64,000 bases of DNA from Leucoraja erinacea. Taxonomy: Eukaryota. How positions within the stretch are numbered: the stretch's first letter is position 1; every line of letters begins with the position of its first letter. Made by a program: the position numbers and the translations under genes. The notes under the pieces are model-generated. The model had not been told where the DNA came from. It searched no databases and saw only the letters and a program-made list of their open reading frames with translations. Positions 6-63,990 of the stretch are shown piece after piece. Location: positions 12,648,001-12,712,000 of the forward strand of contig NC_073405.1 in the NCBI RefSeq assembly GCF_028641065.1, written 5' to 3'.

Positions 6-1363
6 AGAGGAAATGGTTAACAGCACCAGAGTGACAGCTGAATGTTTATTTCAAAATGTGTCCACCATGGAACCCATCAACCGAGAAGATGTTTATGATG
101 AATTTAACGAGATGACCAAAGACATTTCCTCACTGGGGCCATACGAACTGCAAAGCAACAGTCTCTATGTAGACGGTACTTATCAAAATATTCCTTGGTG
201 TTTTTCTTCATATTGTATTTGTCCATTCTACAGTAACTATTGATTTATAGACAAGTTCTTTGGTATTTACATATTTAGATCGGGGACAACCAGGCATGAT
301 ATCCTATAGGATCTGAGAAAGCAAACCTTAAATTCATTCACAGTCTTGCTCTTCGGAGCCTGCCTTTGCACAAACACACTGCCTCACTGGTATGACCCAC
401 ACACAAAAGGATTTTCTTCCTGATAAATGTTCAAGGAGAGGGAAAAAAATACCCGATTAAAAAGTTGCATGCTTTTTTAGAAGAAACAAAGTGCTAGAGT
501 AACTCAGCGGATCAGGCAGCATCACTGGAGAACGTGAATGGGTGACATTTCAGCTCAAAATCCTTCTTCAGACAGATTGTGGGGTGGTGGGGGGAGAAGA
601 AAGCTGTAAGAGAAGGGAGGCAGTACAAAGCACGTCATTAATAGGTGGACACAGGTGAGGTGGACTTTAGATACGCAGAAGGTTGGACAAAGGCCAGAGA
701 CGAAAAAACATAAAGTCTGGGGGAAAGGATTGAAGAGTCGCAAATTTGAAGCCAGAAAAAGGAATGTAGATGGAGGGCAAGTGGGAGGAGTTTACTAGGT
801 GTATGCCCAGTTGTTGTGGTTGGTGGGTTTTTAAAGGTTGCCTAAACTTGAACATTTAAATTTCAACCTTTATTTCTCTGTTTGTTTTCAGATTTCAATG
901 TACAGCACAATGTCAATGGTGAGTTTGTATCAAATGCATGAAATAATTGTCTTAAGCTACATTTGTTCTTCTCCATCTGTTGCTTAGACTCTGTAGAAAT
1001 CCAGTACTGGGAAACAGTTTTTAAACTATTTGAAAATCGTGGTACTCACAACATGCTAAATTGCTTACTCTATTTCCTCAGTTCCAGTTCCAACCGAGGT
1101 AACAAATCCCATTAAATACAACGTGACTTTCATTGTTGACAATCTGTCTATTGAAGAAATTCAAGCAAACCCTTCAGAAACAGCAACCATGATTGCAAAT
1201 GAGGTGAGAGAGTTTACCAATTAGTTTTCTGCTGATATACTACTTATTCATTCCCTTATTATGTCTAATTCTAACACAATTTTTCTTGCCCCCAGCTCAC
1301 AGACCTGTTTGAGAACAGCAGTGTCAATGCAACATTCTTAAAATGTGACGTGAAATCATTCAG
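6..1363 (+). CDS. SEA module 1 (family A)
   Basis: Exons 6-175, 892-918 (DFNVQHNVN), 1082-1203, 1296-1363; all AG/GT; 387 nt = 129 aa. Confidence 0.9.
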
Positions 1364-13300: not shown

Positions 13301-16300
13301 CGGATTTCTCTGACCATTGCTTAGACACCAGTAAAGAGCCACGGCAACATTTCAGCTGTGCTCTTGCTGGCATTGCAAACAACTTTGCACTAAATTCTTT
13401 TATACTTATCACAAATGTCTTTTGCTTTATCGCAGAGAGGAAATGGTTAACAGCACCAGAGTGACAGCTGAATGTTTATTTAAAAATGTGTCCACCATGG
13501 AACCCATCAACCGAGAAGATGTTTATGATGAATTTAGCGAGATGACCAAAGACATTTCCTCACTGGGGCCATACGAACTGCAAAGCAACAGCCTCTATGT
13601 AGACGGTACTTATCAAAATATTCCTTGGTGTTTTTCATCATATTGTATTTGTCCAATCTACAGTAACTATTGATTTATAGACAAGTTCTTTGGTATTTAC
13701 ATATTTAGATCGGGGACAACCAGGCATGATATCCTATAGGATCTGAGAAAGCAAACCTTAAATTCATTCACAGTCTTGCTCTTCGGAGCCTGCCTTTGCA
13801 CAAACACACTGCCTCACTGGTATGACCCACTCACAAAAGGATTTTCTTCCTGATAAATATTCAAGGAGAGGGAAAAAAATACCCGATTAAAAAGTTGCAT
13901 GCTTTTTTAGAAGAAACAAAGTGCTAGAGTAACTCAGCGGGTCAGACAGCATCACTGGAGAACGTGAATGGGTGGCATTTCAGCTCAAAATCCTTCTTCA
14001 GGCAGATTGTGGGGTGGTGGGGGGAGAAGAAAGCTGTAAGAGAAGGGAGGCAGTACAAAGCACGTCATTAATAGGTGGACACAAGTGAGGTGGAGTTTAG
14101 ATACGCAGAAGGTTGGACAAAGGGCAGAGACGAAAAAACATAAAGTCTGGGGGAAAGGATTGAAGAGTTGCAAATTTGAAGCCAGAACTAGGAATGTAGA
14201 TGGGAGGAGTTTACTAGGTGCATGCCCAGTAAGTGGGAGGAGTTTACTAGGTGCATGCCCAGTTGTTGTTGTGGTTGGTGGATTTTTGAAGGTTGCCTAA
14301 ACTTGAACATTTAAAGTTCAACCTTTATTTCTCTGTTTGTTTTCAGATTTCAATGTACAGCACAATGTCAATGGTGAGTTTGTATCAAATGCATGAAATA
14401 ATTGTCTAACACTACATTTGTTCTTCTCCATCTGTTGCTTAAACTCTGTAGAAATCCAGTACTGGGAAACAGTTTTTAAACTATTTGAAAATCGTGGTTC
14501 TCACAACATGCTAAATTGCTTACTCTATTTCCACACTTCCAGTTCCAACCGAGGTAAGAAATCCCATTGAATACAACGTGACTTTCATTGTTGACAATCT
14601 GTCTATTGAAGAAATTCAAGCAAACCCTTCAGAAACAGCAACCATGATTGCAAATGAGGTGAGAGAATTTACAAGTTAATTCACTGATGTTGTTTTACTT
14701 CATCGTACCCTTTTTATTTCTCATTCTGACTCAATTATTGTTACTGCTTTCAGCTCACCGAACTGTTCGAAAATAGCAATGTCAATGCTACATTCTTGAC
14801 ATGTGTTGTGGAATCCTTCAGGTAACTCAAAATAACTTTCCTATTAAATGATAAAATTGATAACGCTCAATAATTCCAATTTGCAAACGCATTAATTTCA
14901 ATTTAATTAAAAATTAATGAGCAAATTTCCCACAAATATCATGTAGAATTAATATAAATTCTACCAGAAAAAAGGTACAATGTACCAGAGTCTCCTTGTG
15001 AGTCAGGCAGCAATTCTGTAGACGCTGGCGAGGCAAAGTTTTGTCGTAGGGGAGTCCAGTTGCCGGTTTTTCGGTGACCTGCTACGACTGTGACAGTCGC
15101 CTGCAGTCAACGAAAATATCGCTTAAGTGGGACAAATACATAAGTATCTAAGCTACTCTTCGAAATATGAGGTGCTGTTCCTCCAGTTTGAGTGTGGCCT
15201 CACTCTGCAATTGATGAGGCCCAGGACAGACAGATTGGTTTGGGAATGGAAAGGGAGATAAATTGTTTTTCAACCAGGATTTCCAGCAGACCTTGGATGA
15301 CTGCACATGTTTGGCGAAAAAGTCATCTAGATACTGTTTGGTCTTGCCAACGTATAGGATACCACATAATGTGCAGCAAATGCATTAGGTGGTGTTAGTA
15401 ACAGTTGGGGTGTAAACTGAGGATGGGGGGAACTCTATCCTTGTTCCGTCTGGGTGAGGGTGATGTGAGAGCAGATCTAAGGGAGACTTGGGTGAGGGAT
15501 CCTTCTAAAACAGCCAAGGCTAATATATATTTACACTAGAAAGACGACATCATGGATGCCCGAGAATGGGAAGCCACATCGTGGTTGAAGATGGGCTGGA
15601 GACGGACAAATTCAGTCGGATTTCTCTAACCATTGCTTAGACACCAGTAATGAGCCACGGCAACATTTCAGCTGTGCTCTTGCTGGCATTGCAAACAACT
15701 TTGCACTAAATTCTTTTACACTTATCACAAATGTATTTTGCTTTATCGCAGAGAGGAAATGGTTAACAGCACCAGAGTGACAGCTGAATGTTTATTTCAA
15801 AATGTGTCCACCATGGAACCCATCAACCGAGAAGATGTTTATGATGAATTTAGCGAGATGACCAAAGACATTTCCTCACTGGGGCCATACGAACTGCAAA
15901 GCAACAGCCTCTATGTAGATGGTACTTATCAAAATATTCCTTGGTGTTTTTCTTCGTAATGTATTTGTCCAATCTACAGTAACTATTGATTTATAGACAA
16001 GTTCTTTGGTATTTACATATTTAGATCAGGGACAACCAGGCATGATATCCTATAGGATCTGAGAAAGCAACCCTTTAAATCATTCACAGTCTTGCTCTTA
16101 GGAGCCTGCCTTTGCACAAACACACTGCCTCACTGGTATGACCCACTCACAAAAGGGTTTTCTTCCTGATAAATGTTCAAGGAGAGGGAAAAAAATACCC
16201 CATTAAAAAGTTGCATGCTTTTTTAGAAGAAACAATGAGCTAGAGTAACTCAGCGGGTCAGGCAGCATCACTGGAGAACGTGAATGGGTGACATTTCAGC

Positions 16301-49300: not shown

Positions 49301-52300
49301 TGCAAATACAATAATGGTGACGAAGTGGTTTTTAGATAGGCACATGAAGATACAGGGAATGAAGGGATATGGATCATGTGCGGGCAAAGGAGATTAGTTT
49401 TACTTGGCATCAAGTTCAGCATGGAATTGAGAGCCGATGAGTCTGTTCTAATCTATGTTTCTTTTTATGTAGTTGATGTTTTTAGCTGTCTCTATGGATA
49501 AATATGCTTTATAGCACAGAATGCAATTCAATAATGGTACATTTCTGAATGTAGCAAACCCTCTTTCAATCATTATCTTTTTTTTTAATAGCTATATTCG
49601 CCGGAGCTGTTCGTCCTTTTGACTTCTTTACATTTTTATTATATCTTAAAGTGTGTTTTAGTGTGTGGGGAGGTGGGGGGTGGTAGCAGGGTATAGGGGA
49701 ATAGGGGGAAACTGATTTTTGGTCGCTTGCCTCGACGGAATGTGACTTTTCTTCATGTCACATTTCGTCCTCCCTTGCGGCATAACAGCTTGGATTGGTG
49801 CGGCCTCTCCCGGAGACGGGGCCCAGAGCTTCAGCAGCGGGCGCAGCGCGGACTCCATTGCGGAGCCGGACAATCCCTTGCCGGGGATTGCCAGAAGAAG
49901 TGCTCCGATTTCTGGCCCACGGACTATAACATCTTAAAGCTGCGGTCTGCGGCGCTTCTAGCCGCGAGCGTGGCATGGACTTCCCATCGCGGAGTCTTGG
50001 ATCCCTTGCTGGGGATCGCCAAAGAGGAGCTCCGACCACCGGCCAGCGGCCTATAACATCGTGAAGCCCCGGTGTCCGGTAGGAAGCGGCCGATTCAGAA
50101 TTTCCAAGTCGCAGAGTGTCCGTCCATCCCGACGTCGGAGTTTTGAGCATCCCGACGAGTGGGCCTGTACATTGGGCCATCCGTAGCGGTGACTGCGGAT
50201 GGTTCATGGTCCCAACCACGGATGAACAAAGGAAGAGGACTGACTGAATGTTATTGCCTTACATCACAGTGACAAATGTTGATTCCACTGTGGTGGATGT
50301 TCATGTTGTATTTTATTGTGTAATGTGCTCTTTTTGATTGTATGGCTGCATGGTAAATCAAATTCCACTGTACCTTAACTGGTGCATGTGGCAATAAATG
50401 TGAACTTGAATTGTTGGTTAAGTGAAAATATGCAAAAGGTTTCATTAATTTGGGCAGTAATATTGTTTGTATTATTACTTGTTAATTGTTGTTAATTCAT
50501 CCTTATCTTACAATATTTTTATAATAATTATTATTTTGCTGTCTTACAGTGTTCTAGGTCAAAATACCCAAGTGTATGCAGTCTGTACCTTCAACAATTC
50601 TGCCACCAGGCCAATTGACAGAGTTACTGTGTATCGACAAATCAGTTACAACACAAACGTCATAACTACATTGGGACCTTATCTTCTGGAGAGCAACAGT
50701 CTCCATGTTGATGGTACGAATTGCTTACTCCTTTACATGATACTGTAGATTTATTCAGGAATTTCAGTGGATGTGTGTGTGTTCACAGCTACTGGGCAAA
50801 CAGTGGGGATTTTAATGTTGCTGTTGTTTTGTCAATCAGAATTTTCTTGCATTCACTTTTCCCAGTAGATCCCTACCGTATATCAGAAAACATGATGGTT
50901 ACTGCTAAAAAAAAAACACGTAGTATTTGTTATAGGTTATTTCAGAAAGCTCTGACTAATTAAACTTTGGCTTCTCTTTTCAGACTACAATGAATTAACA
51001 TCTCCATCTGGTGAGTATGTTTACTATGGGTTTTAATTGTTAATAACTCTACAATTTATCTACAATTTTGATTATTTAAATGTTGTGCTTTCTTTGTAAT
51101 TCTGCAAACTAGATTTCTAAGATTACCTGCATTGGGACATTACATTCCTTTCTCAGCTCCGTGCTGCTAAGACTCCCATGCATACCTATGTTGGTCCTAT
51201 TCCAATCTAATCACACATCCTCCTGACTAGCCTTCCTTATTCCAATCTCTGTAAATCCAAGATTTGCTACACCTCTGCTGTCATTGTCTTTACTGAGATC
51301 CACATTATTGCTGCAGCTGCATTGCTCTTGCTTTGCAAGCCTTCAATGATAATGTTGTCACTTGCTTTCAAAGCACCCCAAGGTCTCACCCTCTCCAGAA
51401 CCTGCTGCCCTTTAATTCTCCACAATTCCTCCCCCCTCCTCCTCTGGATTATGCCAGTGTGATTGGTCCCGTGATGTGGAATGCCTTTGCAGCAGAGCTC
51501 GGGATGTTCTAGAATTCCTTCCCAAAACCTCTCTTTTCTGACAGGTCTCAATTGGGGCAACATCGAGTCAGTAATTTATTTTTTGCCAATTTTCTTCCCC
51601 ATTGTTTTGTTTTAACGTTTTGTGTGAAATTTAAAAGAGACTAGTTGGTTGGTACATTTCATAATCCAATAATTTTTCCTTGTTCCAAAAGCACCAAATG
51701 CAAAGCAGACATCGAATGAGTTTAATGTGACTTTCATTGTAACAAATTTGCCATTCCTGGGATTATTACATGATAAAACATCCCCCTTATATCAATCAGC
51801 ATCGGCAATTATTACAGGAGAGGTAAACTATCAATACAATTTTTATTTAAATTAATTTTCACAATCAATCAAAATGTTCTTCTAACTGGAACATATCTTT
51901 TTTGCAGCTGAATACTTTGTTTAGGAACAGCGAAATCAAGGCACAGTTTAATAACTGTGAAACAAAGTCTCTAAGGTAAGAATTATTCTGTTTTTTCTTT
52001 GTTCTGCAGGAATCTTATAACAGGGTAGTTCCATTTGCTATTTATTTGTTACTTTATTGATACTATTGGTTAAGTGAAAATATGCATTAGGTTTCAGTAA
52101 TTTGGGCAGTAATTTTTTTTGTATTATACCTGTTGTTAATTCACCCTTATCTTACAATATTTTTATAATTATTATTATTTTGTTGTCTCACAGTGTTCTA
52201 GGTCAAAATACCCAAGTGTATGCAGTCTGTACCTTCAACAATTCTGCCACCAGGACAATTGATAGAGTTACTGTGTATCGACAAATCAGTTACAACACAG

Positions 52301-55300
52301 ACGTCATAACTACATTGGGACCTTATCTTCTGGAGAGCAACAGTCTCTATGTTGATGGTACGAATTGCTTACTGCTTTACACAATACTGTAGATTTATTC
52401 AGGAATTTCAGTGGATGTGTATGTGTTCACAGCTACTGGGCAAACAATGGGGATTTTAATGTTGCTGTTGTTTTGTCAACGAACGAAGAAATAGGTGACG
52501 TTTCGGGTCCAGACCCTTCTTCAGATTGATGTGGAGGTGGGGNNNNNNNNNNNNNNNNNNNNNNNNNNNNNNNNNNNNNNNNNNNNNNNNNNNNNNNNNN
52601 NNNNNNNNNNNNNNNNNNNNNNNNNNNNNNNNNNNNNNNNNNNNNNNNNNNNNNNNNNNNNNNNNNNNNNNNNNNNNNNNNNNNNNNNNNNNNNNNNNTC
52701 CACCCGAAACGTCACCTATTTCCTTTGCTCCTTACATGCTGCCTCACCGGCTGAGTTTCTCCAGCATTTTTGTCTACCTTTGATTTTTCCAGCATCTGCA
52801 GTTCTTTCTTAAACATAGTATGAGTTATAGGTTATTACAGAAAGTTCTGACTAATTAAACTTTGGCTTCTCTTTTCAGACTACAATGAATCAACACCTCC
52901 ATCTGGTGAGTATGTTTACTATGGGTTTTAATTGTTAATAACTCTACAACTTATCTACAATTTTGATTATTTAAATGTTGTGCTTTCTTTGTAATTCTGC
53001 AAACTAGATTTCTAAGATTACCTGCATTGGGACATTACATTCCTTTCTCAGCTCCGTGCTGCTAAGACTCCCATGCATACCTATGTTGGTCCTATTCCAA
53101 TCTAATCACACATCCCTCCTGACTAGCCTTCCTTATTCCAATCTCTGTAATTCCAAGGTTTGCCACACCTCTGCTGTCATTGTCTTCACTGAGATCCACA
53201 TTATTGCTGCCTCTGCATTGCTCTTGCTTTGCAACGCTTCAATTTAAATGTTGTCGCTTGCTTTCGAAGCACCCCAAGGTCTCACCCTCTCCAGAACCTG
53301 CTGCCCTTTAATCCCCCACAATTCTTCCCTCCTCTTCTTCTGGTTTATGCCAGTGTGATTGGTCCCCTGATCTGTAATGCCTTTGCAGCAGAGCTCTGAA
53401 GTTCTAGAATTCCTTCCCAAAACCTCTCTTCCTCTCTATTCCCATGAGGCACATCCTGCAATCTACGTTTTACTTCAAACCTTTAAATGCTTATTCTGAT
53501 ATATTCATGGGATTTATGTCAAATGTTCTTTCTTTGATGCTCATGAAATGCTTTGGGACATCTTGCAAGATTAAATATGTAATGCAAATAATTATCGCTG
53601 ACGTTATGGCTCCTCTTAACGCTGAGAAAACGTGTATTATTCTAATTTAAATGTTGGAAAAATTAGGTATGGATTTGTGACTTTTGCTTGATTTAAACAT
53701 TCTAAATGGAACAATGAATGGATGAGCAATATTTTGACTTCCTCAAATGATTGTTCATTTTCTCTTTCTTTGCTACTACAGAACCAATTGGAAAAGTAAT
53801 ACCTGGGTTTAATGTGACATTCATTATAACAAGTCTGACATACACTGCAGCTTTTAATGACCCCTCATCACTGTTGTACCAATCGGCATCGCAATCTGTT
53901 ATTTTGAAGGTAGTGCATCAAAGTATTCTTTATCAGAATAATTTGACAATTATTTAATATAGTCTTCTAACTGAAAAAATGCGAATACCTTCCTTGCAGC
54001 TCAAAAACACTTTCGAGAACAGTGATATAGCGTCAGCATTTACAGGCTGCAAAGTAATTACTTTGAGGTAAGTTATATAACGTTGCCTTTATTCTTCACG
54101 TTATTTGCATTATTTATGTGCACAAAATCTTTTACCTAGGGAAGAGGAATTAAGAACCAGAGAACATGGGTTTAAGATGAAATGGGAAAGATTTAATGGG
54201 AACCTGAGGGGCAACATTTTCACTCAGAGGACGGTCGGTATATGGAATGAGCTGCCAGAGGAGGTAGTTGATAAAATACCAACATTCCACTAGAATTTCC
54301 TAAAAGATTCTATTGCATTGTGTATAATATAGTTGATTAAAATAAATATTGTTCAAACTATTTTAAGCATTGGCTTGCATCGTGACAATATAAGGAGCCG
54401 GTTTATAAAGTGGTGCAATCTCCACTTTTAAGTCACAGTACCTGTCATGTTTCATGTACATGAACATTTTATTTTTGACAGTGCTGCAAATAATCAGGGG
54501 ACTGGCGTGTATGCTATTTGTTCCTTCAACAATACTTCTGCAGCAGAGAATGTGGACAGAGTTATTGTGCACCGCCAGTTCAGTTACACCACGCGGAACA
54601 TCACCAAACTTGGACAATATCTTCTGGATCCAAATAGTCTCTATGTAAACGGTACGAACTGTATAATTATTTCACATAGTACTGCAGAATTCATAACAAA
54701 ACCTGATCAGCAACTTGTGTTCACTCAATCTGTATTCTGTTTTTGTAATGTTATCTTTAAAGTGAAATCACTTGAAAATAGCTTCCCCATTGGGAATTTG
54801 GTACTACATTTTTTTCTTTTAATTTTGTAACAAAGGTACAAAGTTCTTCTTGATTTGACAGGCATAAAAAATACAGGAAGTATTTCATATCAGGTTCAAA
54901 AAAGCTCCAATTAATTTATCATTGCTATCATCTTTTCAGGTTACCACAAATCAAATGAGCCAAAGGGTGAGTATGATTTCAGGCGTCTTTTCTTTTTTAC
55001 TCCTTCTTAAATAGTATTCCTGATTAATTTAACACAGCATTTAGCATCTCTTATAGTTCCATAATCAATTGAATGCTTGTTACCTTGCATTCAGAACAAT
55101 TATTCAGAAAATAAGTTGAAATTTTCTATTATTTTCTATTTCCATTTCATGTTTTCTATTGCCTGATTTCTTACATGATTTTTGCAAAAACGGCAATGCA
55201 ATAAGGTTATTAATTTCATCTTTCTTTCTTTTTGGCAGATTTTCCAAATAGAAGTCAATTTCCTACTCTATTTAACGTGACCTTTACTGTAACGAATTTG

Positions 55301-58300
55301 CCCTACGTTAATGCACTTCATACCCAGACATCGCCTTTGTACCAATCAGCTGTGCTAACAATTACTCATCAGGTAATCAACGTAATATTCATTGAAATTA
55401 TTTAATCATCATTTAATATAGTCAGCTCACTGAAAATTATCTTTCTTGCAGCTCACTACCTTGTTTAATAACAGTGATATAACTTCAGCATTTATTGCCT
55501 GCAACACGAGGTCCTTAAGGTGAGAATTATTCAATGTTTTCCTCATTGTTTCCTGAAGCAATCTATGACAGAGGGATTAATCAGGAATTTCGTTCTTCAC
55601 TCAATATTTCCCTCTACAGAAATATAATTTTGCTTCATTTCTCTGACCTTGGCCAATATATTTGAATTGATTTCTGTTTTAAGTGGTTGATCCCTTCTGT
55701 TAATGCCTGGTTACTTTAGAATCAATTATCATTTATGGTTTCACTTCCCATCAAATTAAAATCTATAACTTCAAACTATTTTATGAGTTGGTAGACAAAA
55801 GTGCTGGAGAAACTCAGCGGGTGCAGCAGCATCTATGGAGCGAAGGAAATAGGCAACGTTTCGGGCCAAAACCCTTCTTCAGACTCCAGTCTGAAGAAGA
55901 ATTTCGGCCCGAAACGTTGCCTATTTCCTTCACTCCATAGATGCTGCTGCATCCGCTGAGTTTCTCCAGCATTTTTGTCTACCTTCAATTTTCCAGCATC
56001 TGCAGTTCCTTCTTAAATATTATATGAGTTGGTTCCTTTATACAATTTCAAATTGACACCACTCACTATTGAATTCAAAGACTAACATGTGCGCCCCTAC
56101 CCCTTCTCATTTTCCTGTGCCCCACCCTATTTGCTTACCTATTTCCCACCCCATTTTCACCTCCTGTTCTTCCATTCCCTTCCAACTATATCCCTCCCTC
56201 TGGCTTTACACTTCATCTTCTCTGCTTCTTACATGATACCAGTTTGTCTCTTCACCTCTAGCCTTTGTTGCTTACTACGATCTGTCACTTAAAACGCCCT
56301 CATCAAGATCCATTATCACTTGCCAGGCTTTGTCCCACTCCACTTCTCTTTTCCAGATTTCTTCCCTCTACTCCAATCAGTCTGAATGGTCCCAACCCAA
56401 AATGTCACCAATCCATTCTCTCCACAGATGTTGCCTTCATAACAAGAGGAGTTGAGTATAGGAGCAAAGAGGTCCTTCTGCAGTTGTACAGGGCCCGAGT
56501 GAGACCACACCTGGAGTATTGTGTGCAGCTTTGGTCTCCAAATTTAAAGAAGGACATTCTTGCTATTGAGGGAGTGCAACGTAGGTTTACAAGGTTAATT
56601 CCTGGGATGGCGGGACAATCATATATTGATAGAATGGAGCGGCTGGGCTTGTATACTCTGGAGTTTAGAAGGTTGAGAGGGGATCTTATTGAAACATATA
56701 AGATTATTAAGGGATTGGACATGCTAGAGGCAGGAAACATAATCCCGATGTTGGGGGAGAACCAGGGGGCACAGTTTAAGAATAAGTTGCAAGCCATTTA
56801 GAACGAAGATGAGGAAAATCTTTTTCACACAGAGGGTTGTGAATCTGTGGAATTCTCTGCCTCAGAAGGCAGTGGAGGCCAATTCTCTGGATGCTTTCAA
56901 GAGAGAGTTAGATAGAGCTCGTAAAGATAGCGGAGTCAGGAGATATGGTGAGAAGGCAGGAACGGGGCACTGAATGTTACTGATGAGCCATGATCACAAT
57001 GAATGGCGGTGCTGGCTCGAAGGGCCGAATGGCCTATTTTTGCACCTATTGTCTATCGCCTGACCTGCTAAATTACTCCAGCAAGTTGGCTTTTGCTCAA
57101 AATTCAGCATCTGCAGTTTGTTGTGTCTTACATTAAAATTTCTTTTGTTTCGCAGCACTGCACGCATGATGATGACCAAAGTGTATGCTCTTTGCTCCTT
57201 CAATTCCATTTCTACAGAGAATGAGGACAGAATTATCATATACCATCAATTCCGTTACAACACACGAAACATCACTATTTTGGGAGCATATTCCCTGGAT
57301 AACAACAGTCTCTATGTAAATGGTATGAAATATCTGGTCATTTTTCATTAGAAAAAGAAATCAGTTTGTAACCTCCGTGTGCTCCTGTTCTCATGTGACA
57401 GGGTTGAGTCACAGTGAAAAAGAAGTAGTCTATTCCCTCCCTGACCCTGTTCCAACATTCAAAGAGATCCTGGCTAATCGGTGACCTAACTCCGTGTCAT
57501 ACCTGTCTATAATGTTATCCATGTCAGATTTAGAGTTAGAATTCACTTGGTCAATTGTTAGAAAAGGATCCCAGATTTCATTCTCATTTAATTTTGATTT
57601 TTTACCAATTTCTCTCCTGAATGGGCCAGGCCTATTTCTTAAACAACATCCCTCAATTCGAGGCACTCTAGCCACCAAAAGCATTTCCTATCTATTCCAT
57701 TAGTTCATCCAACTATCTAGAAAATGTCAATCAAATTAAACCTTACCATTTCAGTTTTCAGTAGGTAAACTAACTGTAGGAATCCTAATAGCATTCCAAT
57801 AAACTTATGTTATTCTTTCACCAAGAACAACATATCTTTCCCAGGGTGAAGACCCTAGAACTGTTTTCAAAACTCTTGTTGTAGTCTAACCATAGATTTG
57901 CCCAATGTAGCACGATCCCTTGTGGAGTGGACTGAAGTCTGAAGAAGGATCTCGACCCGAAATGTCGGCAATTCCTTCTCTCCATGGTTGCTGCCTCACC
58001 TGCTGAGTTACTCCAGCATTTTGTGTCTACCTACAATCCCTTGTGGTCTCGTTCTCTGCATTTAAAGCATGCGCATCATGAGACGTACCTATTTATTTTC
58101 CGTTCTTGTCAAGGATCAACGTTCTTCAACAACAAAATATTTTAGAATCCCAATTACAAATTCTAGATAAAATGTATTTGGCAAACTGATGATGCTATAG
58201 GTTGACAATTATCTGGATCTGATGACCAGAGTTGTGGGATTTCAAAGAACGTGGTAACAGAGCGAGGGACCTTTGAATTTACCATGGTTCCCTGGAATCT

Positions 58301-61300
58301 GAGGAGGACCCAGAGGACTGGAACACCGCAGATGTAATGTCACAGTTCAAGAAAGCAAGAAACTATATGTCAGTTTGCTTAACAACTGACAAAGGGAAAA
58401 TTTTGGAATCCATCATTAAGAACCAAATAGTCTGACAATGGAGAATCTGTAGATTTCCTACCTCCTTTAGACTGAAAATCATCTGTATTTTCTGCCATCA
58501 TTTTTCTCACCAATTAAAACAGTAAACTTCAATTTATTATCAGTATCTGTGTCAGTTGTTGATTTTCAAATGTGTTCAATTTATCTTGTTTCTTAGAAAC
58601 CGTGATCCATAGCTTTTTGTTCACGTTTTTTAAGCTCCGATTTCAATATAATTATTATGCAAACATTTTCCTGGCATTTAATTCTGCTATACTATTGTTT
58701 TTCAGACTACCATGAATCAGCTTTTCCACTCAGTAAGTACAATTCATTAGTCCTTTTTCTCTTTTGCCATTTGAACATTATGCTTCATTTTCAATACTTA
58801 TCTGACATTCAGTTAGATCATGGCTGATTACTATCTCAACTCCATTCACATTGTTTTTAATGATCTCTCTTCATTAGAAACATAGAAAATAGATGCAGGA
58901 AGAGGCCATTCGGCCCTTCGAGCCAGCACCGCCATTCATTGTGATCATGGCTGAGCATCCCCTATCAATAACCCGTGCCTGCCTTCTACCCATATCCCTT
59001 GACTCCACTAGCCCCTAGAGCTCTATCTAACTCTCTCTTAAATCCATCCAGTGACTTGGCCTCCACTGCCCTCTGTGGCAGGGAATTCCATAAATTCACA
59101 ACTCTCTGAGTAAAAAAGTTTTTTCTCACCTCGGTCTTAAATGACCTCCCCTTTATTCTAAGACTGTGGCTGCAATGTGTGTTAATGGATTAGGGAGAAC
59201 CATTTATTGTGTGGTTCTTTATAGTTTTCCACCCCATTAACATATTTTTCTCTTTGACAAGGGGTTTCACCCTCATTTAGAGCCGAAGACCCACACCAAC
59301 CAACATGTCCCACCTACATTAGTTCCACCTGCTTGCATTTGGCCCATAACCCTCTAAACCTGTCCTATCCATGTACCTGTCTGGCATAGGCTCATACAGC
59401 ATGGAAATGGGCTCTTTGGTGCAACTCGTCCATGCCGACCAAGCTGGTCTCATTTGGTCAATAACCTTTCCTATCCATGTACCTGTCCAAACCAAAATGT
59501 ATTTTAAATATTGTTATTGTACCTGCCTCAACTATTCCTCTGGCAGCTCATTCCATGTACGCACCACCATCCGTGTGAAAAAGCTAATAAATGGATCTCC
59601 TCTCATCTTCAATCTATGCCTTCTTGTTTTTGAGTCCCCGAGTCTGGGAGAAAGACTGTGCATAATTTTGCTTTGGCACGATATAAGAAGTTGTGTATGG
59701 TGACAGAGAATGGTAACCCATGTAGTGATATTGCCAAACACTCAACTCGACCCGAAACGTCACCCATTCCTTCTATCCAGAGATGCTGCCAGTCCCGCTG
59801 TTACTCCAGCTTTTTGTGTCTATCTCCTTTTCTTAATTTCTCATATGCTTTGAACAGTGTGGCTTCTGAAAAGTATGACCCCTTGTGGTGTCCCAGTATA
59901 GAAACTTGCAGAGTAAGATTCAATAGCTCTGAAAGGTGATCAGCAACAAGTTAAGCAGGCAGCACCAAAACAGCGCACAGGAGCACAATTGTACAACATA
60001 AATAAATCATAAACACGTACCCTTCTTATTTACATATACTGAAGTTGGCAGGCAGTAAACCTGACAAAACCTGACCCGCTGAGTTACTCCAGCATCTGAC
60101 CCGCTGAGTCACTCCAGCATTTTGTGTTTACCCTGACAAAACTATACATTGTTAAACCTTTGAAATTGTTGCACATTGAACGTTTGTTTTGTGATTTTTG
60201 TTGTTGTTATTTTTATCTGCTTAAGTGGCTTAATACCTATCTGTAGCAACGCAATGTACTTTTCTTTGTTGTCCACCTTATGGTCAGTGGTTGAGACATA
60301 GTTAAAATTTTACTATATATATTGTTCAATTTTACTCTTTAATTAGTATTATTATTTTTTAATTTCTATTTGCCTGCACATTCATATGTGTGTTGTATGC
60401 AGGAATTAATGCTCTTCCCATTTCCATGCATCATCTGAGCTAATCATCTAAAGGCTACATAAACAAAGATACATAGAAAATAGGTGAAGGAGTAGGTCAT
60501 TCGGTACTTCAAGCCACCAATGCCATTCAATGTGATTATGGCTGATCATCCACAATCAATACCCTGTTCCTGCCTTCTCCCCATATCCCTTGATTTCGCT
60601 AGCCCTTGGAGCTCAATCCAACTCTCTTTTGAATGCATCCAGTGAGTCGGCCTCCACTGCCTTCTGAGGCAGAGAATTCCACAAATTCACAATTCTCTGG
60701 GTGAAAAAGTATTTCCTCATCCCCGTTCTAGGCCTATCTCTTATTCTTAGTTCTAGACTCCCCCAACACCGTAAACATGTTTCCTGCATCTTGCATGTCC
60801 AATCCCTTAATAATTTTCTATGTTTCTATAAGATCCCCTCTCATCCTAAATTATAGTGCTTACAAGCCCAGTCGTTTCATTCTTTCATCATACGACAGTC
60901 CCGCCATCCCAGGAATTAACCTCGTAAACCTACGCTGGACTCCCTCAATATCAAGGATGTCCTTCCTCAAATTAGGAGACCAAAACTGCACACAATATTC
61001 CAGGTATGGTCTCACCAAGGCCCTGTACAACTGCAGAAGGACCTCATTGCTCCTATACTCAAATCCTCTCATATGAAGGCTATCATGCCATTAGCTTTCT
61101 TCACTGCCTGCTGTACCTTCATGCTTACTTTCAGTGACTGATGTACAGGGGGCATCCAGGTCTTGTTGCACTTCCCCTTTTCCTATTTCAGATTCAGATA
61201 ATAATCTGCCTTCTTGTTCTTGCCACCAAAGAAGATAACCTTACATTTATCCACATTATACTGCATCTGCCTGCTCACCTAATCTATCCAAGTCGCCCTG

Positions 61301-63569
61301 CATCCTCATAGCATCCTCTTCACAACTCACACTGCTACTCAGCTTTGTGCCAACTGCAAATTTGCTAATGTTACTTAATTCTATCTATATCATTGACATG
61401 TACTGTTAATAGCTGCGGGTCCCAGCACTGAGTCTTGTGCCACCCCACCAGTCACTACCTGCCATTCTGAAAGGGAACCATTAATTCCTACTCTGTTTCC
61501 TGTCAGCCAACCAATATTCGATCCATGTCAATACCATACCCCCAATACCATTTGCTCTAATTTTGCCCACTGATCTCCTGTGTTGAACCTTGTCAAAGGC
61601 TTTCTGAAAGTCCAGATATACTCCATCCACTGGCTCTCCCTTATCCATTTTACATGTTACATCCTCAAAAAAATTCCAGAAGATTAGTCAAGCAAGATTT
61701 CCCCTTCATAAATCCATGCTGACTTGGACTGATCCTGTTACTGCTATCCAAATACTATCACTTCTTTAATAATTGACTCCAGCATCTTCCCCACCACCGA
61801 TGTCAGGCTAACTGATCTATAATTCCCTGCTTTCTCTCTCCTTCCATTCTTAAAAAGTGAGATAACATTAGCTACCCTCCAATCCACAGGAACTGATCCT
61901 GAATCTGTAGATCATTGGAACTGAACCAGAATCTATAGACCTCTAGAAATGAGTCCACAATTTCTAGTGCCACCTCCTCGAGTATCCTGGGATGCAGACC
62001 ATCAGGCCCTGGGGATTTATCAGCCTTCAGTCCCATCAATCTACCCAACACCATTTCCTGACTAATGTGAATTTCCTTCAGTTCCTCTGTCACCCTGGAT
62101 CCTCTGTCCCCTGGTACAGCTGGGAGATTGTTTGTGTCTTCCTTAGTGAAGACAGAACCAAAGTACCTGTTTAACTTGTCTGCCATTTCCATGTTCCCCA
62201 TAATAAATTCACCTTTTTCTGTCTTCAAGGGACTCACATTTGTCTTAACTAATTTTTTCCTCTTCTTCCTCCATAACCTGGAGCACATGTTGTTTGCCAC
62301 CCTCCTGTGGTGATCCACTAGTCTGGTTTGCTCGACTGTGAATTGAATGTATTTTTCACCTATAGCATACGACATCTATATTCAGCTCTTTAATGGGTTA
62401 TAAATAGCATTAATGTATTTTAGGCATATTTTTTAAATTATGAAATAGCAACTTTAAAAAGGAATTTAGGAAGGAGGAAACCAAAGCAGGAAGTGGAATT
62501 TGAAAAAGTAATATGTGTAAAAATAACCAAAAGAAAAAGATAGGCAGCCAATAAAGTCAAAGGACAGAACAAAGTTAAAGAGGCAACATTCAATTCTGCT
62601 TAGGTTGCTTACAACCCAACAATGGGAACATTGAATTCTTCAATATTCGGTAACAGCCCCCCTTTTCCCCCCCTCTCTTTCATGTGCCCCCCCCCACCCA
62701 CTATCCCACCGCCTATATTCCTGCCTCTGGCTTTACATTTCACTCCTCTACTTATCTGACACCCCTTTGTCTCCTTTGCACCTCTAGCTTTTGGCCATCC
62801 ATCTGTCAATCACTTGCCCCTGCCCCTTCACCTGTATACACCCATCAATTGCCAGGCTTTGTTCTGTCCCCACCTCTTTTCCAGCTATCTTCCCCCCCAC
62901 CCCTCCCCACAATCAGTTTGAAGAAGGATTTCAACCTGAAACATTGCCTGTCCATGTCTTCCAGGGACGTTGCCTGACCCACTGAGAGGTGCTTAAAAGG
63001 ATTTTAGATAGGCACATGGATTTACAGTGTATGGAGAGATAGATCACGTGCTGCTGGCAGATTAGTTTATCTTGGCGTCATGTTCGACACAGATATTGTG
63101 CACCAGAGAGCCTGTGCTGTACTGTTCCATGTTCTAATTGGGGAATTAGTAATTTATTTCCCAGCATCTTTCCCAATGTTTGTGCAAGTTGCAATGATAA
63201 AGCAAAGCCTATGTTAAAAAGCAAATGAAACAGGTTACCAGTAAAACAGCATTGCTTATTTCATGTTTTTCATCCTAGCTACATCTCAACAACCAGGTCA
63301 GAAATCTCTGTGCTTTGATGTGTCTGTTATCATCACCAACCTACCATTCAGTTCAGTTCTACTTGACCCAACCTCGCCGTTGTATCAGTCGGCTTCAGCC
63401 CTGGTCATTTATCAGGTACCCCTAAATACAATTAAATAATCTTTATTAAAATAATTTAACTAATGTGATAATAATTATTAACAAGTCTATATTTCTTTCA
63501 GCTCAATGCCATCTTCCGTGACAGCAAAATAAGTGCTCAATTTTCAGAATGTACAAACATCCTCTTAAG
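6..63569 (+). CDS. MUC16: Internal part of a mucin-16-like gene with tandem SEA domains (97 exons, ~3,100 codons in window, both ends outside the window)
   Basis: The spliced repeat ...YNVTFIVDNL.../LTDLFENSSVNATFLKCDVKSF/REEMVNSTRVTAECLF...INREDVYDEFNEMTKDISSLGPYELQSNSLYVD matches the MUC16 SEA repeat pattern (NFTITNL; LF.N.S....CR...LR; T.V.A.C; DRE.LY.E....T..I..LGPY.L...SLYVNG) including the two-Cys loop. Intron phases 1/1/0/2 recur in every module. Strict orthology to MUC16 is inference. Confidence 0.85.
484..860 (-). mobile_element. Penelope-like 3'/pLTR remnant in the A-B intron (repeated in modules 1-9, 19, 20)
   Basis: acaaagtgctagagtaactcagcggatcaggcagcatc...gggtgacatttcagctcaaaatccttcttcagac followed by a purine-rich tract; same family as the element at 62570-62985, in the opposite orientation. 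Confidence 0.65.
1520..2110 (-). mobile_element. Penelope-like remnant in the D-A intron (repeated in modules 1-6)
   Basis: Same pLTR-type terminus. The minus strand reads ...MNNELFNF, resembling the GMNIEFSNF end of the GIY-YIG ORF. Confidence 0.6.
2247..3607 (+). CDS. SEA module 2 (family A)
   Basis: Exons 2247-2416, 3136-3162, 3326-3447, 3540-3607. Confidence 0.9.
4492..5842 (+). CDS. SEA module 3 (family A)
   Basis: Exons 4492-4661, 5371-5397, 5561-5682, 5775-5842. Confidence 0.9.
6726..8079 (+). CDS. SEA module 4 (family A)
   Basis: Exons 6726-6895, 7608-7634, 7798-7919, 8012-8079. Confidence 0.9.
8963..10316 (+). CDS. SEA module 5 (family A)
   Basis: Exons 8963-9132, 9845-9871, 10035-10156, 10249-10316. 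Confidence 0.9.
11200..12552 (+). CDS. SEA module 6 (family A)
   Basis: Exons 11200-11369, 12080-12106, 12270-12391, 12485-12552. Confidence 0.9.
13436..14821 (+). CDS. SEA module 7 (family A', canonical exon C acceptor mutated)
   Basis: Exons 13436-13605, 14347-14373, 14543-14658 (using a downstream in-frame AG because CCACAG became CCACAC at 14531-14536), 14754-14821. Confidence 0.8.
15752..17115 (+). CDS. SEA module 8 (family A')
   Basis: Exons 15752-15921, 16641-16667, 16831-16952, 17048-17115. Confidence 0.9.
18061..20385 (+). CDS. SEA module 9 (transitional, five exons)
   Basis: Exons 18061-18230, 18960-18986, 19475-19525 (extra), 20100-20221, 20318-20385. Confidence 0.85.
19475..19525 (+). 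CDS. Extra 51-nt linker exon (EPQIVPEQNNPNNQENP)
   Basis: Acceptor atttttctttacAG, donor CAG|GTAATT, symmetric phase 1-1, open in the frame set by the flanking exons. Confidence 0.7.
21069..23658 (+). CDS. SEA module 10 (first module with family B microexon, C and D)
   Basis: Exons 21069-21238, 22914-22940 (GYTVQPIAT), 23378-23496, 23591-23658. Confidence 0.88.
21410..22750 (+). mobile_element. Degenerate CR1-clade LINE, RT and 3' end
   Basis: KSSGPD, YRPVSLT, QHGF, SGVAQGLLLGLLLFVIHINDF, FTQRVVSVWNELP motifs with stops and frameshifts. Confidence 0.85.
23890..24730 (-). mobile_element. Penelope-like remnant: RT thumb, linker, GIY-YIG end and pLTR (also ~26600-27440, 29315-30155, 41490-42400; shortened in modules 13-17; related at ~14975-15610 and 17270-17920)
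   Basis: Minus-strand peptides HSRASE.CPFLSKHG, WNKDRVPLVLSFH and SVLGLIHCQSEATLKLEEQHL...MNNESSN are typical of the C-terminal part of a Penelope ORF. Confidence 0.75.
24866..26368 (+). CDS. SEA module 11 (family B)
   Basis: Exons 24866-25035, 25613-25639, 26086-26204, 26301-26368; 384 nt = 128 aa. Confidence 0.9.
25165..25450 (+). mobile_element. CR1 3' fragment carried in each family B unit (modules 11-18)
   Basis: RTRGHGFKV...FTQRVVSVWNEL.EEVVE.GTIATFKTKFDRY. Confidence 0.8.
27582..29083 (+). CDS. SEA module 12 (family B)
   Basis: Exons 27582-27751, 28328-28354, 28801-28919, 29016-29083. Confidence 0.9.
30297..31803 (+). CDS. SEA module 13 (family B)
   Basis: Exons 30297-30466, 31048-31074, 31521-31639, 31736-31803. 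Confidence 0.9.
32192..33694 (+). CDS. SEA module 14 (family B)
   Basis: Exons 32192-32361, 32940-32966, 33413-33531, 33627-33694. Confidence 0.9.
34083..35589 (+). CDS. SEA module 15 (family B)
   Basis: Exons 34083-34252, 34834-34860, 35307-35425, 35522-35589. Confidence 0.9.
35980..37482 (+). CDS. SEA module 16 (family B, exon A acceptor reads GG)
   Basis: Exons 35980-36149 (preceded by CGCGG instead of CGCAG), 36727-36753, 37200-37318, 37415-37482. Confidence 0.75.
37871..39375 (+). CDS. SEA module 17 (family B)
   Basis: Exons 37871-38040, 38620-38646, 39093-39211, 39308-39375. Confidence 0.9.
39764..41262 (+). CDS. SEA module 18 (family B)
   Basis: Exons 39764-39933, 40507-40533, 40980-41098, 41195-41262. 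Confidence 0.9.
42537..44026 (+). CDS. SEA module 19 (A/B mosaic)
   Basis: Exons 42537-42706, 43464-43490 (DFNIQPNVN), 43748-43863, 43959-44026. Confidence 0.88.
44876..47568 (+). CDS. SEA module 20 (junction to the diverged repeats)
   Basis: Exons 44876-45045, 46315-46341 (DYSESPSRN), 47285-47415 (AAG acceptor; FNVTFIVTNLPF...SPLYQSAS), 47501-47568. Confidence 0.85.
46598..46915 (-). mobile_element. CR1 3' fragment with (ACCATATA)n tail
   Basis: Minus ORF TRGHDFRV...NFFTRRVVAVWNELP...FKNKLDRHM; short tandem tail at ~46598-46621. Confidence 0.85.
48230..48770 (+). mobile_element. Degenerate Tx1/L1-clade ORF2 C-terminal fragment
   Basis: VSHLLVD.MFA...SAGNLLVFQEL...CCLLARSKVRE*..RDALK resembles the Cys-rich tail of Tx1-type ORF2 (recognised from memory). 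Confidence 0.55.
48940..49465 (+). mobile_element. CR1 3' fragment interrupted by an inverted-repeat Penelope-derived element (49009-49223)
   Basis: The LINE tail is split by a hairpin element; CAAATTTTAAA is duplicated at 48998-49008 and 49224-49234. Confidence 0.75.
49590..50410 (+). mobile_element. GC/CpG-rich interspersed element with a LINE-like 3' tail
   Basis: Sharp GC/CpG rise in an AT-rich intron; ends ggtgcatgtggcAATAAAtgtgaacttgaa; absent from the paralogous intron 51976-52193. Confidence 0.5.
50550..51975 (+). CDS. SEA module 21 (diverged)
   Basis: Exons 50550-50713, 50984-51010 (DYNELTSPS), 51692-51822, 51908-51975. Confidence 0.87.
52194..54067 (+). CDS. SEA module 22 (diverged)
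   Basis: Exons 52194-52357, 52879-52905 (DYNESTPPS), 53782-53909, 54000-54067. Confidence 0.87.
52480..52812. mobile_element. Inverted-repeat Penelope-derived element spanning the assembly gap
   Basis: gaaataggtgacgtttcgggt lies before the gap and its reverse complement acccgaaacgtcacctatttc lies after it; absent from the paralogous intron 50714-50983. Confidence 0.7.
52543..52698. other. Assembly gap (156 N)
   Basis: Run of N. Confidence 1.
54125..54285 (+). mobile_element. Short CR1 3' fragment
   Basis: RTREHGFKM...IFTQRTVGIWNELPEEVV. Confidence 0.75.
54482..55519 (+). CDS. SEA module 23 (diverged)
   Basis: Exons 54482-54651 (TGVYAIC...LGQYLLDPNSLYVN), 54940-54966 (GYHKSNEPK), 55239-55372, 55452-55519. 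Confidence 0.87.
55791..56017. mobile_element. Hairpin (inverted pLTR) Penelope-derived element
   Basis: Arms ~55790-55885 and ~55888-55983 are near-perfect reverse complements; a ~16-bp direct repeat flanks them (55777-55792 and 56018-56033). Confidence 0.8.
56050..57130 (+). mobile_element. Penelope-like 3' remnant with a nested 5'-truncated CR1 LINE (56433-57057)
   Basis: Pyrimidine-rich tract and pLTR broken at gatgttGCCT|...|GCCTgacctgct. The insert encodes [30 protein letters not shown].WSP and the LINE tail. Confidence 0.8.
57156..63569 (+). CDS. SEA module 24 (diverged, TE-expanded introns)
   Basis: Exons 57156-57322, 58706-58732 (DYHESAFPL), 63279-63415, 63502-63569. Confidence 0.83.
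57926..58035 (+). mobile_element. ~110-bp solo pLTR-type element with an 11-bp TSD
   Basis: ATCCCTTGTGG at 57915-57925 and 58036-58046; contains CTGAAGAaggatctcgacccGAAAtgtc. Confidence 0.75.
58875..59660 (-). mobile_element. Cluster of CR1 3' fragments
   Basis: agaaacatagaaaatag tail; minus ORF KTRRHRLKM...FFTRMVVRTWNELPEE. Confidence 0.75.
60465..62265 (-). mobile_element. Degenerate CR1-clade LINE ORF2 (RT) and 3' tail
   Basis: LNRYFGSVFTKED...[40 protein letters not shown]; internal deletions and stops. Confidence 0.9.
62570..62985 (+). mobile_element. Penelope-like 3' end (GIY-YIG tail, pyrimidine tract, pLTR)
   Basis: FCLGCLQPNNGNIEFFNIR* followed by a C/T-rich tract and cagtttgaagaaggatttcaacctgaaacattgcc...gcctgacccactgag. 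Confidence 0.7.
62986..63135 (+). mobile_element. LINE 3' tail fragment
   Basis: Similar to the tail at 49330-49460 (ttagataggcacatg...agattagttt..cttggc). Confidence 0.55.
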
Positions 63570-63777
63570 GTAAGAATCCTTTATTAGCTTTTATAGATTT
63601 GCTTACAAATTGGGGACTTTGTAGACTTCTATTCATCTATACTATGAGTGCCTGATTTAGCACTAATACATAATGGTGCCTTAGTATCAATATGATTGAC
63701 AACAGGTTTAAATTATTCATCGGATTAGAATGACTATCTATTTAGTATTGCTCTCGTTTCTCCATGTTATGATTCAT

Positions 63778-63990
63778 TCCATGGAATTCTTTGCCACAGA
63801 AGGCTGTGGAGGTCAAGTCAATTAATATTTTTAAGGCAGAGATAGATAGTTGTTTGATTAGTATGGTTGTCAGGGTTATTGGGAGAAGGTAGGAGAATGG
63901 GGTTAGAAGGGAGAGATAAATCAGCCATGATTGAATGGTGGAGTAGACATGTTAGGCCGTGTGGCCTAATTCTGTTCCTATTATTTATGA
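63778..63990 (+). mobile_element. CR1 3' tail fragment
   Basis: tggaattctttgccacagaaggctgtggagg...cagccatgattgaatgg...ggcctaattctgttcctat. Confidence 0.7.

What the first reader, a model, noticed from the sequence alone, without database searches (positions are those of the whole stretch)
6..63569. Giant MUC16-like poly-SEA gene built from a repeating four-exon cassette, hidden from the ORF track
Seen: 24 modules with constant intron phases and invariant 27-nt and 68-nt exons splice into one frame of ~3,100 codons, and the array runs off both ends of the window. Known: mammalian MUC16 has ~156-aa SEA repeats with a two-Cys loop and no GSVVV autocleavage motif; both traits occur here (C-x18-C in families A and B). 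Inference: this is an independent, recent, lineage-specific SEA expansion in a probable cartilaginous fish, with a more compact 128-129 aa repeat.
Basis: partly seen in the sequence, partly recalled or inferred. Interest (0 to 1): 0.75.

Follow-up and report, generated by a model that had tools for sequence, protein, structure and literature searches.

The report
Skate MUC16-like poly-SEA mucin gene
This is the repeated middle of a skate relative of the human CA125/MUC16 surface mucin, built from 24 copies of a four-exon unit; it is one of two such genes in sharks and rays, and just beyond the window it keeps a predicted self-cutting motif that most mammals examined have lost.

Summary
Observation essentially right. 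96 exons (24 x 4) join into 3,090 stop-free codons with fixed 27- and 68-nt exons, giving 23 whole SEA modules of 127-132 aa. Two acceptors are not AG; the one at 35980 sits in a dense substitution patch, where RefSeq splits the gene. The exons match little-skate RefSeq 'mucin-16-like' models exactly over 761 and 1,079 aa. A contig from another species lacks the introns at six junction-spanning gaps tested. No pairing with mammalian repeats, and copying is recent. But the multi-SEA design is shared across jawed vertebrates sampled, arrays of about 30 modules occur in thorny skate and sawfish, 127-129 aa is the batoid norm, and the proximal modules are one-to-one orthologues. Added here: sharks and rays have two MUC16 paralogues, and the membrane-proximal SEA beyond the window keeps G-S-[VIL] in 32 of 35 non-mammals against 1 of 9 mammals. 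Known family, modest interest.

The parts
6..63569 (+). Interior of one MUC16-like gene: 96 coding exons, 24 x (D, A, B, C); 23 whole SEA modules W01-W23 (W = B + C + next D + next A) plus a half module at each end
   Evidence: exact match to RefSeq models P0001 (761 aa) and P0088 (1,079 aa)
6..175 (+). Exon D1 (170 nt, phase 2-1): second Cys, strand 3, helix 2 and C-terminal strand of an SEA domain that begins upstream of the window. Other D starts: 2247, 4492, 6726, 8963, 11200, 13436, 15752, 18061, 21069, 24866, 27582, 30297, 32192, 34083, 35980, 37871, 39764, 42537, 44876, 50550, 52194, 54482, 57156
   Evidence: (MUC16 chains, E about 5e-5)
892..918 (+). Exon A1 (27 nt, phase 1-1): linker. 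Other A starts: 3136, 5371, 7608, 9845, 12080, 14347, 16641, 18960, 22914, 25613, 28328, 31048, 32940, 34834, 36727, 38620, 40507, 43464, 46315, 50984, 52879, 54940, 58706
1082..1203 (+). Exon B1 (122 nt, phase 1-0): linker end, strand 1, first helix. Other B starts: 3326, 5561, 7798, 10035, 12270, 14537 (or 14543), 16831, 20100, 23378, 26086, 28801, 31521, 33413, 35307, 37200, 39093, 40980, 43748, 47285, 51692, 53782, 55239, 63297 (RefSeq uses 63279)
1296..1363 (+). Exon C1 (68 nt, phase 0-2): end of helix 1, first Cys, strand 2. Other C starts: 3540, 5775, 8012, 10249, 12485, 14754, 17048, 20318, 23591, 26301, 29016, 31736, 33627, 35522, 37415, 39308, 41195, 43959, 47501, 51908, 54000, 55452, 63502
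1082..18986 (+). Family A block, W01-W08: 129 aa, genomic period about 2.24-2.29 kb; W01-W04 identical in coding DNA
19475..19525 (+). Single extra 51-nt linker exon (phase 1-1), the only copy in the window; also present in thorny-skate models
23378..43490 (+). Family B block, W10-W18: 128 aa, period about 2.71 kb then about 1.89 kb
35859..35984 (+). Patch of 19 substitutions (15 found in no other of 18 copies compared, no indels) that includes the GG acceptor of exon D16; RefSeq ends one model at D15 and starts the next inside D16
14535..14542 (+). Acceptor of B7 reads CAC; an in-frame AG lies 6 nt downstream (two residues shorter)
43748..46341 (+). W19 (127 aa): last family-B-type module, one-to-one with a thorny-skate module
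47285..58732 (+). Family C, W20-W23 (130-132 aa): diverged membrane-proximal modules, one-to-one with thorny-skate modules; spliced form seen in a contig of another species
63279..63569 (+). B24 and C24: first half of the penultimate SEA domain; its D exon, the last SEA (GSVKV), transmembrane helix and tail lie beyond the window

Best explanation
The window is the interior of one skate MUC16-family gene whose exons encode a chain of 23 whole SEA domains; it likely makes a single-pass cell-surface glycoprotein that works as a long, N-glycan-rich spacer in the epithelial coat and is likely shed near the membrane. Shown: the frame-preserving four-exon cassette, the SEA identity, the paired cysteines, 2-6 N-glycosylation sequons per module, short Ser/Thr-poor linkers, and membership of one of two shark/ray MUC16 paralogues (here 'DGK', after its tail). 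Taken from database models: a transmembrane helix and short tail 1.5 domains past the window, and a signal peptide with a 584-aa Pro/Thr/Ser-rich head in the thorny-skate orthologue. Inferred: because any four consecutive exons sum to whole codons, unequal crossing-over and conversion copy or drop units with their introns without breaking the frame; the distal array therefore turns over in each lineage while the proximal domains stay one-to-one. The in-window domains would stay uncut; release would occur at the last SEA (GSVKV) or next to the membrane.
For: Exon anatomy and open frame. Pfam SEA on the matching RefSeq proteins, E 1.9e-40 and 1.4e-100; only MUC16 chains hit in PDB by sequence, 3 of 3; AlphaFold model of P0001 (mean pLDDT 76, pTM 0.28, low-confidence linkers) has human MUC16 SEA as the top 4 Foldseek hits, TM to target 0.55-0.83. 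Exact identity with L. erinacea models over 761 and 1,079 aa; consecutive accessions XP_055514607-611. Contigs of run X19 (another species label) lay exon by exon, with gaps of 68, 27, 69, 28 and 71 nt equal to the predicted spliced gaps, 5 of 5 tested. Paralogue clades DGK 100/99 and FY 99/99, tetrapods 100/100. Distal modules cluster by lineage, proximal ones by position. RefSeq isoforms differ by whole modules: 1,280 vs 1,408 aa here, steps of 127 aa in sawfish.
Against: No junction read from the best DNA holder's species was seen: three RNA runs (1-5% of each read) had about zero depth in exon-bearing bins such as 47101-47750 and 54901-55550, and 1,694 joints were not displayed. X19 is labelled 'RNA? 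(probably DNA)', so its intron-less contigs could be a retrocopy. No family A or B junction was seen in any run. The GG acceptor at D16 breaks the frame if only that exon is skipped. Near-identical units (W01-W04) may be over- or under-counted by the assembly. Constraint among recent copies is weak and mixed (pN/pS 0.026/0.125 for W01-W07 but 0.064/0.048 for W17-W18). Synteny, tissue and function were not tested; the comparison proteins are automatic gene models.
Confidence: 0.85

Rival explanations
1. The locus is two or three separate transcription units, as RefSeq annotates it, or the distal array is cut off: the GG acceptor at D16 is real, so upstream modules give a truncated or decayed product and only the 3' part makes a membrane protein.
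For: GG at 35978-35979; RefSeq has separate models ending at D15 and starting in D16; the thorny-skate gene is also split into two models; skipping D16 alone or C15+D16 gives a stop.
Against: The RefSeq fragments have no signal peptide, start at internal Met codons and end by reading into introns. The GG lies in a 126-bp patch of 19 substitutions, 12 of them transversions, in an array otherwise about 99% identical, as a local consensus error would look. Whole-module skipping (three registers tested) and an in-frame AG 24 nt downstream keep the frame. All 96 exons are stop-free. Sawfish has one 31-domain model ending in the same tail.
Confidence: 0.1
2. One reading: a recent, species-specific and independent creation of a poly-SEA protein with an unusually compact repeat, convergent on mammalian MUC16.
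For: Units 96-100% identical with their introns inside families A and B; Leucoraja family-B modules W10-W18 form their own clade, 97/90; no pairing with baboon repeats.
Against: Multi-SEA relatives across all jawed-vertebrate groups returned; the last SEA groups with the penultimate SEA of amniotes, 41 domains, support 1.0; thorny skate and sawfish have about 32 and 31 domains; both families predate the Leucoraja-Amblyraja split; 127 aa in sawfish, devil ray and stingray.
Confidence: 0.05
3. Part of the copy number is an assembly artefact: the near-identical blocks (W01-W04, W13-W17) are inflated or collapsed.
For: W01-W04 identical in coding DNA and 98.6-100% in introns; error-like patch at D16; a 156-base gap at 52543-52698; human MUC16 was long over-counted, 63 against 19 repeats (PMC10829539, passages).
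Against: 20 of 23 modules are distinct in coding DNA; units carry diagnostic intron indels and period changes; related species show similar counts.
Confidence: 0.25

Closest known systems
RefSeq 'mucin-16-like' models of Leucoraja erinacea (XP_055514607-611; P0004, P0090, P0001, P0088, P0003)
   Same: Same exons; exact identity over 761 aa (P0001) and 1,079 aa (P0088).
   Different: RefSeq splits the locus into three models; modules W01-W07 matched none of P0001-P0004 exactly, apart from short stretches; RefSeq includes the 51-nt exon and uses the 63279 acceptor, whereas the X19 contig fits 63297.
Human MUC16 / CA125 tandem-repeat region (Pfam PF01390; PDB 7SA9, 8GKL, 8VM1)
   Same: Tandem SEA domains, two-cysteine loop, no GSVVV in the repeats, transmembrane helix and short tail, forms that lack whole repeats (PMC3431878 and PMC10829539, passages).
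   Different: Human: 19 repeats of 156 aa, five exons each, 19-residue loop, Ser/Thr-rich linker. Skate: at least 26 domains of 127-132 aa, four exons, 17-18-residue loop, about 2.6 Ser/Thr per linker against 9-14 in mammals. The membrane-proximal SEA of amniotes has no counterpart after the cleavage-type SEA in sharks and rays. Human DSVLV is not cut (PMC4456727, passages); skate has GSVKV at that place.
Second shark/ray MUC16 paralogue ('FY' tail; e.g. P0061 thorny skate, P0005 zebra shark)
   Same: Multi-SEA array, cleavage-type last SEA, transmembrane helix and tail; on a contig of the same length as the DGK gene in thorny skate, zebra shark and sawfish.
   Different: Separate clade; longer repeats (about 134-142 aa) with 5.6-8.4 Ser/Thr per linker.
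MUC1-type single-SEA mucins and other self-cleaving SEA proteins
   Same: SEA fold; G-S-V motif in the strand 2-strand 3 loop of the skate gene's last SEA (motif and loop from PMC6954182 and PMC9564314, passages).
   Different: One SEA only; the skate loop is flanked by two cysteines (C-x15-C) and has Lys in the motif; by sequence this domain hits MUC16 chains, not MUC1.

Membership tests
SEA domain (PF01390) | Profile match above the curated cut-off | tested here: met
   P0001 137.7 bits and P0003 331 bits against 26.4; these are identical to the window's spliced exons. Single exons alone stayed below the cut-off, 3 of 7 with a weak hit.
SEA domain (PF01390) | Ferredoxin-like SEA fold | tested here: met
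   Predicted model; top 4 Foldseek hits are MUC16 SEA structures.
MUC16 | Many tandem SEA domains | tested here: met
   23 whole modules in the window.
MUC16 | Conserved two-cysteine loop in each repeat | tested here: met
   23 of 23 modules, spacing 18 (21) or 17 (2); human spacing 19.
MUC16 | Transmembrane helix and short cytoplasmic tail homologous to MUC16 | tested here: met
   In P0003/P0088, which continue the window's exons; tails align with tetrapod mucin-16. The exons themselves lie outside the window.
MUC16 | N-terminal Pro/Thr/Ser-rich mucin domain and signal peptide | tested here: inconclusive
   Outside the window. Thorny-skate P0089: signal-peptide-like start and 584 aa at 48% P/T/S; stingray P0062/P0108: 176 aa at 32%. 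Not seen in any L. erinacea model returned.
MUC16 | Phylogenetic orthology with tetrapod MUC16 | tested here: inconclusive
   Both shark/ray clades are equally related to tetrapod MUC16 in the C-terminal tree, as co-orthologues would be, and the cleavage-type SEA groups across jawed vertebrates; no non-MUC16 outgroup was included, so the root is assumed.
MUC16 | Conserved synteny | not testable with these tools
   The gene fills the window and no genome is held.
MUC16 | 156-aa, five-exon repeat (human form) | tested here: not met
   127-132 aa, four exons. This defines the mammalian repeat, not the family: birds about 137, sharks 124-142, mammals 134 and about 156.
Self-cleaving SEA (MUC1 type) | G-S-V-V-V-like motif in the strand 2-strand 3 loop | tested here: not met
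   0 of 23 window modules. The gene's last SEA, outside the window, has GSVKV.
Self-cleaving SEA (MUC1 type) | Actual autoproteolysis | not testable with these tools
   Needs expression of the domain.

The most novel reading that the evidence does not exclude
Ancestral jawed-vertebrate MUC16 was a four-exon-cassette poly-SEA mucin with one self-cutting, disulphide-clamped SEA domain near the membrane; sharks and rays duplicated the gene and batoids grew one copy into a chain of about 30 compact, N-glycan-rich domains whose length is tuned by whole-module gain, loss and skipping, while mammals lengthened the linker and lost the self-cutting site, leaving the uncut DSVLV.
Probability: 0.35. Interest if true: 0.55.

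Novelty: new member of a known kind. Interest (0 to 1): 0.36.

Why it matters
It repairs a gene that RefSeq splits, and places MUC16 history on a wider base: the open-access papers seen take MUC16 only as far as chicken (PMC1552070, passages). The two shark/ray paralogues, the conserved-proximal/turning-over-distal pattern and the G-S-[VIL] motif kept in non-mammals make one old question directly testable: whether the MUC16 'DSVLV' site, shown uncut in human (PMC4456727), is the relic of a working self-cleavage site. It is not a new kind of system.

Tried and rejected
No whole genome is held, so upstream exons, the transmembrane exon and synteny could not be read. Run search: no RNA holder listed; this says nothing on expression. 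Three RNA runs with the best holder's species label gave about zero exon depth, tissue unknown, 1-5% of each run read: uninformative. Whether the GG acceptor at 35980 is real could not be checked on reads; comparison with 18 other copies found no donor for the patch (4 of 19 letters shared elsewhere), so gene conversion from a copy in the window is not supported and the question stays open. Idea that the DGK paralogue lacks a mucin (PTS) head, from the stingray model: rejected by thorny-skate P0089. Search for further copies of the 51-nt exon: only one. Rfam: 0 matches. TRF (period limit 500) does not see the kb-scale units. The Pfam side hits (HNOB, DUFs, terminase) have no passing stretch and are repeat-summing artefacts. 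One paper search ran as an OR query and was useless. Lang 2016 has no mention of MUC16 in its main text. Pei and Grishin 2017 is not held. Earlier-finding look-ups by place, relatives and sequence returned nothing.

Full report
Observation. Self-comparison shows kb-scale tandem units: a block with a period near 2.24 kb at 1-19 kb and a block with periods near 2.71 and 1.89 kb at 22.5-43.5 kb. tblastn and a splice-site scan found four exon classes repeated 24 times on the + strand. A exons are all 27 nt, C exons all 68 nt, D exons 164-170 nt, B exons 116-134 nt. All 96 donors are GT and 94 of 96 acceptors AG; joined, the exons give 3,090 codons without a stop and 23 whole modules of 127-132 aa. 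Each module has exactly two cysteines (18 residues apart in 21, 17 in 2), 2-6 N-glycosylation sequons and no GSVVV-like motif. As a chance control, 7 of 182 intronic AG..GT segments of 170 nt are open in the frame needed. The longest stop-to-stop frames in the window are under 180 aa and several are LINE remnants, which explains why an ORF track misses the gene.

B7 has a CAC acceptor with an in-frame AG 6 nt on. D16 has GG; it lies in a 126-bp patch of 19 substitutions (12 transversions, no indels; 15 seen in none of 18 other copies). Dropping D16 alone, or C15 with D16, gives a stop; dropping any of three whole-module registers does not, and an in-frame AG lies 24 nt downstream. Whether the GG is real stays open. 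One extra 51-nt linker exon exists at 19475-19525.

Identity. Exon D1 hits only MUC16 chains in the PDB (3 of 3). A protein search returned 4 proteins among 5 candidates, all skate 'mucin-16-like'. The spliced frame equals L. erinacea P0001 over 761 aa and P0088 over 1,079 aa; the models carry consecutive accessions; P0001 stops at D15 by reading into the intron and P0003/P0088 start at a Met inside D16, so the annotation breaks at the GG. P0003/P0088 go on past the window through the rest of one SEA, a last SEA, a transmembrane helix and a short tail. Pfam SEA scores are far over the cut-off. An AlphaFold model of P0001 from a 24-sequence alignment shows separate confident domains with low-confidence linkers (pLDDT 76, pTM 0.28), and its top 4 structural hits are human MUC16 SEA domains. 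The gene has at least 26 SEA domains (23 whole, one entering from the left, two finishing on the right).

Splicing evidence. Four runs were laid on 44501-64000. Three RNA runs with the best DNA holder's species label covered repeats but not exons. In run X19 (another species label; tool label 'RNA? (probably DNA)') a 3,046-nt contig lay on five exons in order and a 365-nt contig on two; the record gaps of 68, 27, 69, 28 and 71 nt equal the predicted spliced gaps, 5 of 5 (the 365-nt contig joins B20-like to D22-like sequence, which are near-identical neighbours of one module type). This supports the family C exon structure in a relative, as mRNA or retrocopy. No family A or B junction was tested.

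Relatives. Two further searches returned 46 and 52 multi-SEA proteins from sharks, rays, chimaera, coelacanth, frogs, sauropsids and mammals (only the best 7,983 and 7,980 candidates scored; no ray-finned fish appeared, which is weak evidence of absence). An HMM from the window's modules found 495 domains in 49 sequences, 466 near full length. Spacings are 124-142 aa in cartilaginous fish, about 137 in birds, and 134 or about 156 in mammals; in baboon the 156-aa repeats differ from the 134-aa one by a 22-aa Ser/Thr-rich insert in the linker. Human repeats have five exons and 156 aa (PMC3431878, passages); that one of them is a 66-nt linker exon and another 68 nt is recalled, not checked. The four-exon unit is therefore likely the older state. 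Sawfish models have up to 31 domains at 127 aa, stingray 17-18; thorny skate has P0089 (signal-peptide-like start, 584-aa head at 48% P/T/S, 23 domains) and P0002 (10 domains, sharing one identical module with P0089), about 32 in all.

Trees. FastTree on 438 domains (left out: 29 partial domains, models duplicating the window, and one redundant model each of bamboo shark and hamster), IQ-TREE on 167 and on 53 rows, each with only 111-116 columns. W01-W19 group with other skate modules (100), inside a batoid clade (100), inside a clade with zebra-shark distal modules (99). W19-W23 pair one-to-one with thorny-skate modules, W22 and W23 also with other batoids. Families A and B both occur in thorny skate, each species having amplified its own near-identical copies (W10-W18, 97/90; eight Amblyraja family-A copies, 100/97). 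Baboon's 13 distal repeats form their own clade (99). Four chosen skate-baboon pairings were all rejected by AU tests (p 8e-5 or lower). The same polarity, proximal conserved and distal lineage-specific, appears in birds, mammals and other sharks. A tree of the cleavage-type SEA plus membrane and tail (44 proteins; 3 dropped for lack of a detected membrane segment) splits sharks and rays into two clades, DGK (10 rows, 100/99; this gene) and FY (13 rows, 99/99), with chimaera unresolved and tetrapods 100/100; the root is assumed. DGK distal linkers are shorter and poorer in Ser/Thr (2.6 per linker in the window; FY 5.6-8.4; mammals 9.3-14.3; pattern-detected linkers only).

Cleavage-type domain. 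The last SEA of cartilaginous fish, coelacanth and frogs groups with the penultimate SEA of amniotes (41 domains, support 1.0). In the 44-protein set G-S-[VIL] stands in its strand 2-strand 3 loop in 21 of 24 cartilaginous fish, 2 of 2 frogs, 9 of 9 sauropsids and 1 of 9 mammals (two mustelids have GSM); a C-x15-C pair flanks it in 30 of 35 non-mammals and 0 of 9 mammals; 21 of 769 other domains (redundant isoforms included, 17 further cleavage-type or doubtful domains left out) have the tripeptide in that region. MUC1 and some adhesion GPCRs cut themselves at GSVVV or GSIVA in this loop (PMC9564314, PMC6954182; passages); the human MUC16 DSVLV site was predicted to be cut but was not (PMC4456727, passages). 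The skate form, GSVKV, departs from the consensus and the cysteine pair could either clamp the two halves or relieve the strain, so cleavage is only a prediction.

Mechanism. Shown: cassette, frame, domain identity, paralogue, turnover pattern. From database models: membrane anchor, tail, and the mucin head in a close relative. Inferred from MUC16 biology: an epithelial surface spacer and barrier, here relying on N-glycosylated domains more than O-glycosylated linkers, shed near the membrane. Inferred from near-identical introns and symmetric phases: unequal crossing-over and conversion resize the distal array; RefSeq isoforms differing by whole modules and human forms lacking whole repeats (PMC10829539, passages) suggest module skipping, although such isoforms can be mapping artefacts in repeats.

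Literature. Ten searches of open-access text found no paper on shark or ray MUC16, its duplication or its array turnover; most subscription papers are not covered. Passages were read from PMC1552070 (chicken Muc16, at least four SEA), PMC3431878, PMC10829539, PMC4948705 (no MUC16 mention), PMC4456727, PMC13345508, PMC6954182 and PMC9564314; no supplements were read, and they may list fish MUC16. Duraisamy 2006, Maeda 2004 and Lang 2007 were seen only as cited; Pei and Grishin 2017 is not held. Any of them may already note parts of this.

Verdict. A real, well-supported gene of a known family, already annotated in fragments. Interest 0.36.

Noticed in passing
window 56430-57060 (+), 60470-62270 (-), 21737-22084 (+), 46600-46920, 58870-59170, 63780-63980: Intronic remnants that look like CR1/LINE reverse-transcriptase 3' ends (family label recalled; frames seen); heavily covered by repeat-derived reads.
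   Followed up: no
window e.g. 485-550, 1520-1600, 49010-49200, 55795-55990, 57940-58030: Short hairpin-like or SINE-like repeats recur in the introns, several as inverted pairs, and were copied along with the family A units; very high read depth genome-wide.
   Followed up: no
window 52543-52698: 156-base N gap inside the D22-A22 intron, in a repeat element; an unseen module there cannot be excluded, though thorny skate has the same module order.
   Followed up: partly
window 63279 and 63297: Two in-frame acceptors for B24; RefSeq uses the first, the X19 contig fits the second.
   Followed up: partly
P0051/P0096 (sawfish): Distal modules m08-m21 repeat with a period of four (identical sets m10/14/18, m11/15/19, m09/13, m16/20): a higher-order repeat; zebra shark P0006 shows a period of three.
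   Followed up: no
P0019 (chimaera): The model has two cleavage-type SEA domains (third-last and last), which may reflect two tandem genes fused in one model or an internal duplication.
   Followed up: no
P0065/P0066, P0009/P0027: Some sharks appear to have two FY-type genes as well, so the cluster may hold three MUC16-like genes.
   Followed up: no
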